The notes: generated by a model from the sequence alone, not told the origin. A stretch of 64,000 nt of DNA from a virus (IMGVR_UViG_3300045049_000125:1-64000); one strand, 5' to 3'. Positions 11,193-43,187 are shown, numbered from the stretch's first letter. Made by a program: numbers and translations.

Positions 11193-11798
11193 TTATGCGC
11201 ATTCGTCGCGGTTCTTCGCTAATCGCCTGCTCCATCCCTTTCCGAAGGTGCGCCAGTTCTTGGACGAGCGATAAGCAACCTCACGAAGGTCGTTGAGCAT
11301 CAAGCAGGCGCGATACCTGTCCGGGGCGGCTTTGGTGGCTTGCGCGACCCATGCGAGGCTGCGCGGGCCGTGCTGGACGTAGCTGTCAAAGGCTTGATAG
11401 GCGAGTTCGTCATTCCTGATTCGGGATGCTCCGCTGTTACGCCATAGTGATTCATAAATGAATCGCGCCACTTCGATAGGAAGGTCCGCCATGCGGCCTC
11501 GATATCCATAGTGTCGGGCTGTGGATTCAGTAATGCCAAATCGGGTCGGGCCACCCGGATCACGGGCGCGGTTAGCGAATCCGCCTTCGTGGGCGAGTAC
11601 ACGATTGATGCTCCTGTGCATAACGGCCGCTCTGCGAGCCGTCTCCGCCGCCATCAGGGCATCGAGCAAGTCCGGTGCGGCTTTGGGTAGAGTGACGGGC
11701 TGGGCGTTCTGTGGCGCTGCTACGGCGTGGTAAGGAAGGGTGGTGGCCCAGCCAAGGGCGAAGGTTACAACGGCGATGAGTGCGGCTCGGTGCCACAT
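11193..11798 (-). CDS. Secreted glycoside hydrolase family 108 lysozyme
   Basis: Start at MWHR after GGAGG; N-terminal signal-like segment; HEGG...DPGGPTRFGIT and FGKGWSRRL motifs. Confidence 0.85.
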   Translation of the reverse strand: MWHRAALIAVVTFALGWATTLPYHAVAAPQNAQPVTLPKAAPDLLDALMAAETARRAAVMHRSINRVLAHEGGFANRARDPGGPTRFGITESTARHYGYRGRMADLPIEVARFIYESLWRNSGASRIRNDELAYQAFDSYVQHGPRSLAWVAQATKAAPDRYRACLMLNDLREVAYRSSKNWRTFGKGWSRRLAKNRDECA

Positions 11799-11896
11799 AG
11801 TACGGTCCTCCGTGTCGAATGCATGGCCGAACATCGATCATGCGCGCGGCGGTGGGACTTCCTGTGAAGTCGCTTTGCCGAATGTGTGAATTCCCT

Positions 11897-40019: not shown

Positions 40020-40089
40020 TGGTGGACCGTGAGGGAATTGAACCCTCTGCCGGGAGGTAGGAACTCCCATGCCCCAACCACGGCGGCCC
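40020..40089 (-). tRNA. Atypical 70-nt tRNA: CCT anticodon (AGG, Arg) with Ala identity elements and reduced D arm
   Basis: GGGCCGC/ACGGTCC-A-CCA with G3:U70 and A73; GGGAG-TTCCTAC-CTCCC; GAGGG-TTCAATT-CCCTC. Confidence 0.7.
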
Positions 40090-40243: not shown

Positions 40244-40323
40244 TTTGAAACTGACGGTCCCGGCGAAGGCTGGATGTCGGAAACACGACTAACCTAATCA
40301 CAGCCTTGCCGGGACGCTACAAC

Positions 40324-40395
40324 TGGTGGACCGCGTGGGAATCGAACCCACCAAAGTCTCCTTGCAAAGGAGTCTCGCGCCCCAGCGCGCAGCCC
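40324..40395 (-). tRNA. tRNA-Ala(TGC) with compact D arm
   Basis: G3:U70, A73, anticodon loop TTTGCAA; D arm GCGC-TGGG-GCGC. Confidence 0.85.
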
Positions 40396-40475: not shown

Positions 40476-40532
40476 GAATTCGTCCGGTCTCTCCCGGGGT
40501 CAAGCCTACATCGTCGGGCTTTCGACATTGGA

Positions 40533-40609
40533 TGGTCCGTGCAGCAAGACTCGAACTTGCGACCCCCGACTCCCAAAGACGGTGCGCTACCAAACTGCGC
40601 TATACACGG
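40533..40609 (-). tRNA. tRNA-Pro(TGG)
   Basis: C1-G72, A73, anticodon loop TTTGGGA, CCA. Confidence 0.95.
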
Positions 40610-41152: not shown

Positions 41153-42532
41153 TCAACTTCCCATGTTGAAGAAATCCTTTCCTCGGTTCTTTATCTGCTT
41201 CCACAGCGCGTAGCGCAGAGCATCAAACCCATGGTTGTGGGCATCGATCAGAATAGGGAGCACGATGTCATTTTGCATCTTGTCCACTTTGTAACGGTAA
41301 TTCTTGACTTCTGCAATAAGATTTACGCATCGTGGATGAATGTAGATGCGATGGAATTGGTTGAGGAATGCAATACCGTCCTCCACGGAGCCTTGCCATT
41401 TCTCGGCAGCTCCCGTGTAGAACTCGAATTTGTGGCGAAGATGCGAAATGGTCTCGGGCCGCGCAGCATCGCAGTAAATCGGATGATGGCGCACGCCGGG
41501 CACTTGCTCCATGAGCTTGGGCAGATCGTCCAACTCCACGCGGCCGAACGCTTCATAATCGACGTACAAGTCACGATTGACGTGATCGATATAGCATCGC
41601 ACCAACGCATTGGGATCGTTTGAAAATCCGAAGTCCATGCCGTAATGGAATTCGGTATTGAGCGGTGCAGTGAATTCTTTCACTTCGGCACGACGGATCA
41701 CCTGTGCAGCGGCAATGCGCTTAACATCGCCCTTCCACACCCAATCGTAATCGGCCTGCGCCTGAATGCGCGCGTCCTCGTTCGGAGCGGTTTCAATCAG
41801 CGAAAGCGCATAGAGTCGCTCATTTTCCAGTTCAAGCGGGAAGTACGGATTGTGCTCGTAATTGACCTGCACGGATGCCGTATTCGCGCATGGGTTATAA
41901 ATCCAGCGCTTTTGCATGAAGCTGTCCGCATGCTCCGGATTGCATGCAATGATGATTCGCGAGCCGCCTTTACGAATCGTGGGGAGCAGGATTTTCCACG
42001 AACCATCGGACACGGCCTGTCCTTCTTCCACAAAGCAAAAGCCCACACCATTCAGCGATTTCACGCTGTTGATATTGGTTTTCAAGCCTTTGTAGATGAA
42101 TTCCGATCCAGTTGCTCGATTGCGAATGGACGTCTTGCCCACGATGAATCGCTTGCGCAAACCGAGGCGATCAACGTGTTCTTCCATGAGCGCATGACAC
42201 GAATCAGCGATGCTGTTCATGTGCTCACGGCACAGTAGGAAACGATCTTGAATGACATCCGCCCACAAAATCAGAGATTCTGTGATGTTGAATGACTTAC
42301 CGCTACCGCGTCCACCGTGGAACATCTGATAGCGGTATGGACTGATAAGCGGCCAAAACCGCGTATCAGCATAAAGGGCTAGACGCTCAAGACTCTCCGT
42401 CGAAGCCTTCGCCGAAATCTTCGTCATCGGATCGCGGACCGTTTGCCGGTCCAGCTTCGCCATTTCCTGCTCCACTATCTCCCGATCCGTTAGCAGGCGG
42501 GAGCTGGTGCCCTCGGTTTTGGAGTAATCCAT
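41153..42532 (-). CDS. terL: Terminase large subunit (PBSX/SPP1-like)
   Basis: HGGRGSGKS, FVEEGQ, PTIRK.GS, GMDFGFSNDP and NH.FDALRYA motifs; start uncertain (frame open to 42589). Confidence 0.92.
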   Translation of the reverse strand: MDYSKTEGTSSRLLTDREIVEQEMAKLDRQTVRDPMTKISAKASTESLERLALYADTRFWPLISPYRYQMFHGGRGSGKSFNITESLILWADVIQDRFLLCREHMNSIADSCHALMEEHVDRLGLRKRFIVGKTSIRNRATGSEFIYKGLKTNINSVKSLNGVGFCFVEEGQAVSDGSWKILLPTIRKGGSRIIIACNPEHADSFMQKRWIYNPCANTASVQVNYEHNPYFPLELENERLYALSLIETAPNEDARIQAQADYDWVWKGDVKRIAAAQVIRRAEVKEFTAPLNTEFHYGMDFGFSNDPNALVRCYIDHVNRDLYVDYEAFGRVELDDLPKLMEQVPGVRHHPIYCDAARPETISHLRHKFEFYTGAAEKWQGSVEDGIAFLNQFHRIYIHPRCVNLIAEVKNYRYKVDKMQNDIVLPILIDAHNHGFDALRYALWKQIKNRGKDFFNMGS

Positions 42533-43187
42533 TGAAGAAACCTTGAATGTGCTGCATCGTGACTGGCTGCGAATCGATGGAATCGTCATCCTCAGTCAAG
42601 AAACCCTTGAGTTTGGAAATCTGATTGAGCGCGTTCATTGCTGTCGCAGGGTCAGCCGTCAACGCGATCTTAGTGTAGGCGGCAATCAAGCCTTCCTTGG
42701 TGGTGACGTCTTCTTCGTTGACGTCATTTCCATATTGATCGCGCTTGAAGTCCGCAGCGGTTACCCAGCCGGCCGAGATGGCCTTAATTAGCTCGGCAAC
42801 GGCCTTGTCCTTGTTGCGCATTTCCGGAATCAGCATGCCTCGCGGACCCGTCTTAAAGCCGGTCACATACTGGCGAGACTTCTTCGGCAATGCGCTGAAA
42901 TCGAAGGCTTCCATGAGGATGTGACCCTCGCCCTTGCACATACCACACGGCTCAACCTTGTCTGTCTCGTCCTCTTGTGGTGGCGCGTCTTCATCGCCCC
43001 ATGTGGATAGAGCGCGATCTACTTGCTTCTTGCGCAGCTTCGCTTTGACGTCGTACACGCGCACGCCTTCGCCGCCGCATTCAGGGCAGGGGACGGGCTC
43101 TTTTACTACGCCTTTCACGTAGTCTGCGCTGATGACGTCGAGAAGGTCTCGCACTACCTCAGCGCGTACGGGGTTCTTGATCGCCAT
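42387..43187 (-). CDS. terS: Terminase small subunit with CxxCxGxG zinc finger
   Basis: Immediately upstream of terL; CPECGGEG...CGMCKGEG and G.K....G......DKA motifs. Confidence 0.7.
   Translation of the reverse strand: MAIKNPVRAEVVRDLLDVISADYVKGVVKEPVPCPECGGEGVRVYDVKAKLRKKQVDRALSTWGDEDAPPQEDETDKVEPCGMCKGEGHILMEAFDFSALPKKSRQYVTGFKTGPRGMLIPEMRNKDKAVAELIKAISAGWVTAADFKRDQYGNDVNEEDVTTKEGLIAAYTKIALTADPATAMNALNQISKLKGFLTEDDDSIDSQPVTMQHIQGFFNGLLQNRGHQLPPANGSGDSGAGNGEAGPANGPRSDDEDFGEGFDGES

What the first reader, a model, noticed from the sequence alone, without database searches (positions are those of the whole stretch)
40020..40089. Compact tRNA with alanine identity (G3:U70, A73) but an Arg-type CCU anticodon
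Seen: GGGCCGC CGTGGTTGGGGCAT GGGAG TTCCTAC CTCCC GGCA GAGGG TTCAATT CCCTC ACGGTCC A CCA (70 nt). Its acceptor end and short TGGGGC D region parallel the compact tRNA-Ala(TGC) at 40324-40395, suggesting a duplicate with a switched anticodon. Established: AlaRS recognises G3:U70 and ignores the anticodon; bacterial ArgRS relies strongly on A20, and this D loop has no A. Inference: it could insert Ala at AGG codons (mistranslating host mRNAs or rescuing ribosomes stalled at a rare codon), act as an anticodon-nuclease decoy, or mimic the tmRNA tRNA-like domain (also G3:U70, A73, no proper D stem). Evidence against genome-wide recoding: an AGG in the GH108 gene occupies an Arg position of the GWxRR motif. 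The C7:A66 mismatch could indicate decay.
Basis: partly seen in the sequence, partly recalled or inferred. Interest (0 to 1): 0.75.

Follow-up and report, generated by a model that had tools for sequence, protein, structure and literature searches.

The report
Alanine-type phage tRNA with arginine anticodon
A soil phage carries, at the end of its tRNA gene cluster, a shrunken tRNA gene whose charging end is copied from alanine tRNAs while its anticodon reads the arginine codon AGG. It could therefore put alanine where arginine is coded, but it is a one-off with no relatives or expression data to show that it works.

Summary
Observation confirmed. Window 40020-40089 (minus strand) holds a 70-nt tRNA-shaped gene. 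It is the last member of an eight-gene tRNA array in a complete 73.8-kb soil/rhizosphere phage.

- **Detection:** ARAGORN calls it tRNA-Arg(CCU) at 99% of its default threshold, with no calls in 20 shuffled genomes. Rfam's tRNA model does not match it.
- **Alanine-type body:** it has G1-C72, G2-C71, G3.U70, A73 and an encoded CCA. Its acceptor/T part is 33/35 and 32/35 identical to ordinary tRNA-Ala(UGC) genes of a Patescibacteria (candidate phyla radiation, CPR) assembly and of Acidobacteriaceae. It is 30/35 identical to the neighbouring compact tRNA-Ala and 14-21/35 to the other six array tRNAs.
- **Anticodon arm:** intact (5 bp, U33, CCU, A37) but unrelated to the Ala or Arg(CCU) arms examined.
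- **Weak points:** the D arm is degenerate and C7.A66 is a derived mismatch.
- **Codon use:** AGG is the phage's rarest sense codon (26 of 21,721).
- **Relatives:** no CCU relative turned up in IMG/VR, JGI metagenomes or GenBank phages. There is no expression evidence.

Best reading (0.4): a remoulded tRNA-Ala that host AlaRS charges with alanine and that can read AGG. Rivals are an Arg-charged tRNA and a non-decoding relic.

This scan has noted the same kind before on other DNA: compact alanine-type tRNAs with non-alanine anticodons. Unlike some of those, this one has no antisense partner.

The parts
40020..40089 (-). 70-nt compact tRNA-shaped gene with an alanine-type acceptor/T minihelix and a CCU anticodon
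40083..40089 (-). acceptor stem 5' strand GGGCCGC (G3 of the G3.U70 pair at 40087)
   Evidence: Identical to the 5' strand of the Patescibacteria-group tRNA-Ala(UGC) in L300
40069..40082 (-). degenerate D region CGUGGUUGGGGCAU. ARAGORN fold: 3-bp stem (G.U, U-A, G-C) with a 7-nt loop. My alternative: a bulged 4-bp hairpin with a UGGG loop
   Evidence: the alternative is inferred from the compact tRNA-Ala class
40052..40068 (-). anticodon arm GGGAG-UUCCUAC-CUCCC: 5 perfect pairs, U33, A37
40059..40061 (-). anticodon CCU, which pairs with codon AGG
40048..40051 (-). 4-nt variable region GGCA
40031..40047 (-). T arm GAGGG-UUCAAUU-CCCUC
   Evidence: Pairing probability about 1. 16/17 identical to the L300 tRNA-Ala
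40020..40030 (-). acceptor 3' strand ACGGUCC (U70 at 40026, mismatched A66 at 40030), discriminator A73, encoded CCA
   Evidence: 11/11 identical to the Acidobacteriaceae array tRNA-Ala(UGC)
40324..40395 (-). paralogous compact 72-nt tRNA-Ala(UGC). Its D hairpin GCGC-UGGG-GCGC follows the acceptor stem directly
   Evidence: Member of a covarying phage class
40094..40893 (-). the rest of the tRNA array: Gln(UUG), Trp, Pro(UGG), Thr(UGU), Ala(UGC), Gly(UCC), Cys. The candidate is its 3'-most member

Best explanation
The gene is a remoulded tRNA-Ala. It keeps an alanine-tRNA acceptor/T minihelix and has a shrunken D arm and a new, intact anticodon arm carrying CCU.

Proposed mechanism:
1. It is transcribed with the array and trimmed like its neighbours. 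This step is inferred from its position and orientation, the same 4-nt spacing as the compact tRNA-Ala, and the encoded CCA.
2. Host alanyl-tRNA synthetase charges it with alanine. The enzyme reads G3.U70 and A73 in the acceptor helix and does not contact the anticodon. This follows from established biochemistry and was not tested here.
3. The alanyl-RNA can then pair with AGG on the ribosome and insert Ala for Arg. This is the least certain step.

AGG is the phage's rarest sense codon, so such a missense tRNA would cost the phage little. Whether it gives a benefit is open. Possible benefits are relief of stalling at AGG, or damage to host proteins that use AGG more often.
For: - The gene is real and tRNA-shaped: ARAGORN calls it at 99% of its default threshold, with none in shuffled genomes.
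- G1-C72, G2-C71, G3.U70, A73 and CCA are present.
- The minihelix is 33/35 identical to a Patescibacteria-group (CPR) tRNA-Ala(UGC), 32/35 to the Acidobacteriaceae tRNA-Ala(UGC) and 30/35 to the phage's own compact tRNA-Ala. It is only 14-21/35 identical to the six other array tRNAs.
- The best GenBank-phage hit of the 3' half is an annotated tRNA-Ala.
- The stems are maintained, not decaying. The T stem (5/5) and anticodon stem (5/5) are perfect. The 50:64 pair differs from the neighbour on both sides (U-A to A-U), and 5:68 is improved from U.G to C-G. One mismatch (C7.A66) is seen among the 17 acceptor, anticodon and T stem pairs.
- The acceptor (pairs 1-5) and the T stem have pairing probability 0.98-1.0 whichever fold the middle adopts.
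- Minimal D arms can work in phage tRNAs. A compact 72-nt tRNA-Ala(UGC) class with a covarying 4-bp/4-nt D hairpin recurs in many IMG/VR phages, and it is the only Ala tRNA in a 15-tRNA array.
- AlaRS ignores the anticodon and G3.U70 suffices (PMC11415595). Natural G3.U70 tRNAs with non-Ala anticodons inserted Ala in E. coli (PMC5389517).
- A20, the main bacterial ArgRS determinant (PMC9976931), has no clear counterpart.
- AGG is the rarest sense codon: 26 of 21,721, or 1.2 per 1000. The cognate codons of the other array tRNAs run at 7-18 per 1000.
- Three of the four AGG sites in the endolysin are variable positions. At the fourth, the nearest homologue has Ala.
Against: - It is a singleton. 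No gene combining this body with CCU was found in IMG/VR, JGI metagenomes or GenBank phages. There is therefore no covariation or conservation for this gene itself.
- The nearest related phage has no tRNA array at the same site.
- Rfam's tRNA model is silent.
- The D arm is weak (C8, no A14, a 3-bp stem with a G.U pair), and C7.A66 weakens the acceptor base.
- The predicted minimum-energy fold destroys the anticodon stem: stem probability 0.16, and the cloverleaf is 6 kcal/mol worse. Two canonical neighbours also misfold in silico.
- C35, U36 and A73 are ArgRS determinants, so Arg or dual charging is not excluded.
- A covariance model of the compact tRNA-Ala class scores it (35.5 bits) no better than ordinary tRNAs (30-45 bits).
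Confidence: 0.4

Rival explanations
1. It is a working tRNA-Arg(CCU) in the ordinary sense. ArgRS charges it through C35, U36 and A73, and it supplies a decoder for the rare AGG codons of a few phage genes such as the endolysin. G3.U70 is then an inherited feature that causes at most partial Ala charging.
For: - The anticodon loop UUCCUAC has C35, U36 and A37, and the discriminator is A73. These are bacterial Arg determinants (PMC9976931).
- Phage arrays often carry tRNA-Arg(CCU) genes; examples are L111 and L115.
- The endolysin has 4 AGG in 212 codons, one of them at a mostly conserved Arg.
Against: - There is no A20 equivalent in the D loop.
- The minihelix is that of tRNA-Ala, not of any tRNA-Arg seen.
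- The ordinary phage tRNA-Arg(CCU) genes retrieved have A3-U70 and full D arms.
- The anticodon arm does not resemble the Arg(CCU) arms of phages or of Acidobacteriaceae arrays.
- G3.U70 is sufficient for AlaRS.
- AGG is the rarest codon, so bulk codon supply does not explain the gene as it does the other seven.
Confidence: 0.2
2. It does not decode. It is either a decaying by-product of tRNA-Ala duplication and recombination in the array, or a tRNA-shaped end or processing module of the array transcript. It may be alanylated but is not used by the ribosome.
For: - It is a singleton with no conserved relatives.
- The array is accessory, being absent from the nearest phage.
- The D arm is degenerate, C7.A66 is mismatched and Rfam is silent.
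- A competing fold is 6 kcal/mol more stable than the cloverleaf.
- It is the last gene of the array.
- Other Ala-type phage elements keep the minihelix but have a plain long hairpin in the middle, for example L087.
Against: - The anticodon arm is perfect and canonical (5 bp, 7-nt loop, U33, purine 37), which a processing module or a decaying copy would not need.
- The T stem and acceptor differences from relatives preserve pairing, with one exception.
- The score is near the ARAGORN default.
- Seven true tRNAs already provide processing sites.
Confidence: 0.3
3. It is a decoy or mimic. It either soaks up a host anticodon nuclease aimed at tRNA-Arg, or mimics the tRNA-like domain of tmRNA.
For: - G3.U70 and A73 with a reduced D arm are shared with the tmRNA tRNA-like domain.
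- That phages carry tRNAs against tRNA-cleaving defences is my own background knowledge.
Against: - ARAGORN finds no tmRNA.
- The Rfam tmRNA match is only the 17-nt T arm at 11.4 bits.
- A full anticodon arm is present, which tmRNA lacks.
- No nuclease or defence context was examined or found.
- The anticodon arm does not copy the Arg(CCU) arms available for comparison.
Confidence: 0.05

Closest known systems
Allo-tRNAs with G3:U70 and non-alanine anticodons from soil Acidobacteria and metagenomes (Mukai et al. 2017, PMC5389517)
   Same: Natural tRNAs that combine the AlaRS determinant G3.U70 with anticodons for other amino acids. The wider 9/3 allo-tRNA group includes anticodons for AGA/AGG codons. 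Amber-anticodon versions of the G3.U70 members inserted Ala in E. coli. The habitat is also soil.
   Different: Allo-tRNAs have 8/4 or 9/3 acceptor/T geometry and a Ser-type long variable arm. This gene is 7/5 with a 4-nt variable region and a shrunken D arm, and it is phage-encoded.
tRNA-Ala genes with changed anticodons: yeast tRNA-Ala(CAG) and human tRNA-Ala anticodon variants (review PMC11415595)
   Same: They arise by duplication of a tRNA-Ala gene followed by an anticodon change. This is possible because AlaRS does not read the anticodon.
   Different: In those cases only the anticodon changes on a normal tRNA body. Here the whole anticodon arm is different, the D arm is reduced, and the carrier is a phage.
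   Same: GGGC... acceptor with G3.U70, A73 and encoded CCA; small G-rich D loop; same T arm type; same position in a phage tRNA array, 4 nt after the preceding tRNA.
   Different: The class has a clean 4-bp D hairpin with an NGGG loop, a 6-bp anticodon stem and anticodon UGC. The candidate has none of these, and the class model scores it like any tRNA.
Ordinary bacterial and phage tRNA-Arg(CCU)
   Same: Anticodon CCU with C35, U36 and A37, and discriminator A73.
   Different: Ordinary examples have a full D arm with A20 and no G3.U70 (PMC9976931). Their acceptor/T sequence is unrelated.
Compact alanine-type tRNA-like genes noted earlier by this scan on other DNA (Ser, Gly, amber and other loops; some with an antisense partner RNA)
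   Same: Compact size, G3.U70/A73 acceptor and a non-alanine loop, often in phages. They are missed or mislabelled by tRNA finders.
   Different: No antisense partner is present near this gene. The CCU anticodon was not among those notes.

Membership tests
Canonical elongator tRNA (Rfam RF00005) | Score at or above the family's gathering threshold (29 bits) | tested here: not met
   No RF00005 match even at E<=10 in a 3-kb or an 86-nt search. The six canonical neighbours score 48-70 bits.
Canonical elongator tRNA (Rfam RF00005) | 7-bp acceptor stem, 5-bp T stem with loop UUCRANN, and 5-bp anticodon stem with a 7-nt loop, U33 and purine 37 | tested here: met
   6 pairs plus C7.A66; T arm and anticodon arm perfect. 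ARAGORN calls it at 99% of default.
Canonical elongator tRNA (Rfam RF00005) | D arm with a 3-4-bp stem, U8, A14, G18G19 and A21 | tested here: not met
   C8, a 3-bp stem including G.U, and loop GUUGGGG. Only the GG is present.
Substrates of bacterial alanyl-tRNA synthetase (tRNA-Ala identity) | G3.U70 wobble pair in an intact acceptor helix | tested here: met
   G3 and U70 flanked by G2-C71 and C4-G69; pairing probability 0.99.
Substrates of bacterial alanyl-tRNA synthetase (tRNA-Ala identity) | Discriminator A73, G1-C72 and G2-C71 | tested here: met
   Read from the sequence. Identical to the phage's own tRNA-Ala(UGC) and to the Patescibacteria-group and Acidobacteriaceae tRNA-Ala genes.
Substrates of bacterial alanyl-tRNA synthetase (tRNA-Ala identity) | Actual charging with alanine | not testable with these tools
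   Needs an aminoacylation assay.
Substrates of bacterial arginyl-tRNA synthetase (tRNA-Arg identity) | A20 in the D loop, the main determinant in E. coli (PMC9976931) | tested here: not met
   The only A of the D region lies 2 nt after the G run, and ARAGORN pairs it in the D stem. No base sits at a position equivalent to 20.
Substrates of bacterial arginyl-tRNA synthetase (tRNA-Arg identity) | C35, U/G36 and A/G73 | tested here: met
   Anticodon CCU and discriminator A.
   The D region pairs only as a 3-bp stem or a bulged hairpin with two G.U pairs. The anticodon stem is 5 bp and the anticodon is CCU. Class model R1 gives 35.5 bits, against 97 for the window's tRNA-Ala and 30-45 for ordinary tRNAs.
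Allo-tRNA (Mukai et al. 2017) | 8/4 or 9/3 acceptor/T arrangement with a long variable arm | tested here: not met
   7/5 arrangement with a 4-nt variable region (definition).
tmRNA or its tRNA-like domain | Acceptor/T domain without an anticodon arm, joined to a tag reading frame and pseudoknots | tested here: not met
   ARAGORN finds no tmRNA. The Rfam tmRNA hit is the T arm only, at 11.4 bits against a threshold of 47. A complete anticodon arm is present.
tRNA-like RNA with adjacent antisense partner (earlier notes of this scan) | A neighbouring small gene complementary to the anticodon-type arm | tested here: not met
   No complement of 12 nt or more anywhere in the window. The best duplex within 1.5 kb is -22.9 kcal/mol, inside the background range of -19 to -26.

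The most novel reading that the evidence does not exclude
The phage deliberately carries a natural Arg-to-Ala missense tRNA. The RNA is charged by host AlaRS and reads AGG. It mistranslates, or relieves stalling in, host messages that use AGG. The phage protects itself by making AGG its rarest codon and confining it to tolerant positions.
Probability: 0.15. Interest if true: 0.8.

Novelty: new variant of a known kind. Interest (0 to 1): 0.5.

Why it matters
- If the RNA is charged with alanine and used by the ribosome, it would be a virus-encoded tRNA that changes the meaning of a sense codon during infection. I found no paper describing such a case in a phage; the 2024 review of mistranslating tRNAs does not mention phages at all.
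- It illustrates a cheap evolutionary route. AlaRS ignores the anticodon and most of the tRNA body, so a tRNA-Ala copy can lose its D arm and take any anticodon while still being charged.
- Annotation is affected. Standard finders either miss such genes or label them by anticodon as 'tRNA-Arg', which may be the wrong amino acid.
- Together with the similar cases already noted by this scan, it adds to the evidence for a dispersed, unannotated population of alanine-type compact tRNAs in phages.

Tried and rejected
- **Synteny through the terminase.** The nearest IMG/VR relative (L001/G001, TerL 74% identical) has no tRNA array. Closer relatives exist only as proteins (P0001, 91% identical).
- **Pattern scans for a CCU relative.** IMG/VR gave none, or only unrelated oddities. 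The three JGI metagenome hits are unrelated. GenBank phages gave none.
- I stopped that step.
- **Sequencing runs.** No RNA holder is listed. DNA holders are soil and rhizosphere metagenomes, probably the source sample. In the laid contigs of variant strains, only the 3' 29 nt of the candidate are covered by a variant contig, and that part is unchanged.
- **AGG sites against a related genome (G001).** Only one AGG site was alignable, so this was uninformative.
- **AGG-rich 'cassette' at 65-68.5 kb.** This was an artefact of my first gene calling. The ORFs are antisense to tiled plus-strand genes and have no homologues at all.
- **Antisense partner search.** Negative.
- **Chimera hypothesis.** The anticodon arm is not similar to the tRNA-Arg(CCU) of Acidobacteriaceae arrays.
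- **Rewired tRNA-Arg layouts from earlier scan notes.** The 4-nt variable region leaves no room for a displaced D loop.
- **Promoter and terminator scan.** Uninformative.
- **Minimum-energy folding as a test of tRNA-likeness.** Not discriminating, because the Cys and Trp tRNAs also misfold.

Full report
**What is there.** The window is the first 64 kb of a complete 73,839-bp IMG/VR phage record with direct terminal repeats and about 54% G+C. DNA holders are soil and rhizosphere metagenomes.

On the minus strand lies a tRNA array. It sits between the large terminase gene (41153-42589) and a small ORF followed by MazG and ThyX genes. ARAGORN at default settings finds Gln(UUG), Trp, Pro(UGG), Thr(UGU), Ala(UGC), Gly(UCC) and Cys. 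Rfam's tRNA model confirms six of them at 48-70 bits. The Ala gene (40324-40395, 72 nt) is compact and matches only weakly.

**Is it more than chance?** Yes.
- ARAGORN reports it as tRNA-Arg(cct), 70 nt, as soon as its threshold is lowered to 99% of default.
- It is the only additional call down to 93%.
- Twenty composition-preserving shuffles of the genome gave no call at 99%.
- At 80% ARAGORN produces 85 calls in the genome and about 52 per shuffled genome, so low-threshold calls in general mean nothing.
- Rfam's tRNA model gives no match even at E<=10. This reflects the aberrant D region.

**Anatomy (and direct reading).**
- Acceptor: G1-C72, G2-C71, G3.U70, C4-G69, C5-G68, G6-C67, C7.A66; discriminator A73; CCA encoded.
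- D region: 14 nt (CGUGGUUGGGGCAU). It offers only a 3-bp stem with a 7-nt loop, or a bulged hairpin with a UGGG loop. It has C8 and no A14.
- Anticodon arm: perfect, GGGAG/CUCCC, with loop UUCCUAC (U33, CCU, A37).
- Variable region: 4 nt.
- T arm: perfect, GAGGG/CCCUC, with loop UUCAAUU.

Thermodynamically the acceptor (pairs 1-5) and the T stem are near certain (p 0.98-1.0). The middle prefers an alternative long hairpin, so the cloverleaf is 6 kcal/mol worse and the anticodon stem has p 0.16. This counts for little, because the canonical Cys and Trp tRNAs of the same array also fail to give a cloverleaf in silico.

**Whose body is it?** I compared the 35 nt that form the acceptor/T minihelix plus NCCA.

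| Compared with | Identical nt of 35 |
|---|---|
| Canonical tRNA-Ala(UGC), Patescibacteria-group (CPR) assembly (L300) | 33 |
| 80-nt tRNA-Ala(UGC) in long tRNA arrays of Acidobacteriaceae assemblies (L262 and others) | 32 |
| Neighbouring compact tRNA-Ala | 30 |
| The six other tRNAs of the array | 14-21 |

- The 3' 26 nt are 25/26 identical to the Acidobacteriaceae gene.
- That gene also has the UUGGGG D-loop motif and is preceded by the same ATTT.
- Among 50,697 GenBank phage records, the only notable hit of the candidate is the 3' end of an annotated tRNA-Ala.

So the minihelix is unmistakably of tRNA-Ala descent. The relatives have U7-A66 or C7-G66, which makes C7.A66 one derived substitution. 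The other differences from the neighbour preserve pairing: U50-A64 becomes A50-U64, and U5.G68 becomes C5-G68. This is not the pattern of a decaying copy.

The anticodon arm resembles neither the Ala arms nor the tRNA-Arg(CCU) arms of phages or of the Acidobacteriaceae arrays. The gene is therefore not a simple anticodon point mutant of the neighbour.

**Are tiny D arms compatible with function?** Apparently yes. Scans of IMG/VR retrieved a recurrent 72-nt tRNA-Ala(UGC) design. In it a 4-bp D hairpin with an NGGG loop follows the acceptor stem directly, and the hairpin covaries (GCGC/GCGC, GUAC/GUAC, CCUA/UAGG, UCCA/UGGG-type pairs). The anticodon stem is 6 bp. In L187 this design is the only Ala tRNA of a 15-gene array.

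The window's tRNA-Ala belongs to this class (97 bits with the class model). The candidate does not clearly belong: it scores 35.5 bits, within the 30-45 bit range of ordinary tRNAs.

**Which amino acid?** This rests on established knowledge, not on a test here.
- AlaRS recognises G3.U70 with A73 in the acceptor helix and makes no use of the anticodon (PMC11415595).
- Natural soil tRNAs with G3.U70 and foreign anticodons, once given an amber anticodon, inserted Ala in E. coli (PMC5389517).
- For bacterial ArgRS the main determinant is A20 in the D loop, followed by C35, U/G36 and A/G73 (PMC9976931).
- The candidate has C35, U36 and A73 but no A at a position equivalent to 20.

I therefore consider alanylation very likely if the RNA is made, and arginylation possible but weaker. 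Whether the charged RNA is accepted by the ribosome is open.

**Codon context.** My first greedy gene calling produced spurious antisense ORFs. I corrected it with a codon-score selection.
- In 109 called genes (21,721 codons), AGG occurs 26 times and AGA 27 times among 1,253 Arg codons.
- AGG is the rarest sense codon, at 1.2 per 1000.
- The cognate codons of the seven canonical array tRNAs occur at 7-18 per 1000.
- Codon supply, which explains the rest of the array, therefore does not explain this gene.
- The GH108 endolysin (11193-11834, minus strand) has four AGG codons. Three are at variable positions.
- The fourth is the first Arg of the GWxRR motif. There the nearest homologue (75% identical) has Ala and the next has Lys.

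**Conservation.** None could be shown.
- The nearest IMG/VR relative lacks the array.
- Pattern scans for the same body with CCU found nothing in IMG/VR or in JGI metagenomes.
- A looser scan returned ordinary tRNA-Arg(CCU) genes with A3-U70, plus a few unrelated alanine-type oddities that carry UUCCUA in 8-nt loops (L107, L109, L110, L126).
- Contigs of variant strains in the source habitat cover only the last 29 nt of the gene, and these are unchanged.

**Earlier notes of this scan.** The scan has repeatedly noted compact alanine-type tRNA-like genes with non-alanine loops in phages and bacteria. Some have a dedicated antisense RNA next to them. I tested that feature here and it is absent. 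Notes on 'rewired' phage tRNA-Arg genes do not fit, because the 4-nt variable region leaves no room for a displaced D loop.

**Verdict.** The gene is a tRNA-Ala derivative with an intact CCU anticodon arm.

| Reading | Confidence |
|---|---|
| Alanine-charged RNA able to read AGG, i.e. a natural missense tRNA | 0.4 |
| Arg-charged tRNA | 0.2 |
| Non-decoding relic or processing module | 0.3 |
| Decoy or tmRNA mimic | 0.05 |

It is a new variant of a known kind, namely tRNAs whose acceptor identity and anticodon disagree. It is interesting but supported by a single sequence.

Noticed in passing
window 40244-40323 (minus strand): The 80-nt spacer between tRNA-Ala and tRNA-Gly folds into a long, nearly perfect hairpin (about 15 bp; -34.4 kcal/mol; z = -5.8; none of 200 shuffles as stable). 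Its role is unknown. It is not complementary to either compact tRNA.
   Followed up: partly
window 40324-40395; L187:1867-1938, L142:88-159, L161:8287-8358, L243:10269-10340, L138:4235-4306, L180:2393-2465, L143:986-1056, L202:4330-4401: A recurrent 71-73-nt phage tRNA-Ala(UGC) design (most copies 72 nt). It has no 8-9 linker, a covarying 4-bp D hairpin with an NGGG tetraloop, and a 6-bp anticodon stem, often with an internal A.A mismatch. Rfam's tRNA model scores the window's copy poorly.
   Followed up: partly
L109:560-630, L110:602-671, L107:2225-2294, L126:7329-7399: Unrelated IMG/VR phage contigs carry about 70-nt elements with a G3.U70/A73 acceptor, a small D hairpin and UUCCUA inside an 8-nt loop. 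The loop CUUCCUAU is identical in L109 and L110, although their stems differ. An 8-nt loop reading UCCU would fit a four-base AGGA codon; this is only a thought.
   Followed up: no
L087:4371-4451: An 81-nt element has the same acceptor stem as the window's tRNA-Ala and the same T stem as the candidate. Its middle is one long hairpin without an anticodon-type loop.
   Followed up: no
L262, L270, L276, L283, L297 (Acidobacteriaceae assemblies): These hold long arrays of 16-31 tRNA genes. Each includes an 80-nt tRNA-Ala(UGC) with a 6-bp D stem and a 5-nt UUGGG loop. Its 3' half is nearly identical to the candidate's. This is a possible hint at the host group, but the other phage tRNAs do not match these arrays.
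   Followed up: partly
L293, L284, L278, L299, L275, L294, L254 (Candidatus Peribacteria assemblies): 70-72-nt elements have an 8-bp GGGCCGUG acceptor with G3.U70, a 4-bp T stem and a long hairpin ending in loops such as CUCGACA. They are probably the tRNA-like family with antisense partners noted earlier by this scan.
   Followed up: no
window 11193-11834 (minus strand) and the whole genome: AGG and AGA are the two rarest sense codons of the phage (26 and 27 of 21,721). AGA is absent, and AGG nearly so, from the plus-strand structural genes. The GH108 endolysin alone holds four AGG and one AGA.
   Followed up: partly
window 40478-40533: In a related strain from the same habitat (run X3), the 54-nt spacer between tRNA-Thr and tRNA-Pro is replaced by 82 other letters. 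The flanking tRNAs are kept.
   Followed up: no
G000 65370-68532 (L130:1370-4532, minus strand): Long open frames of 211, 591 and 193 aa are antisense to four tiled plus-strand genes and have no homologues at all. They are a trap for longest-ORF gene calling.
   Followed up: yes
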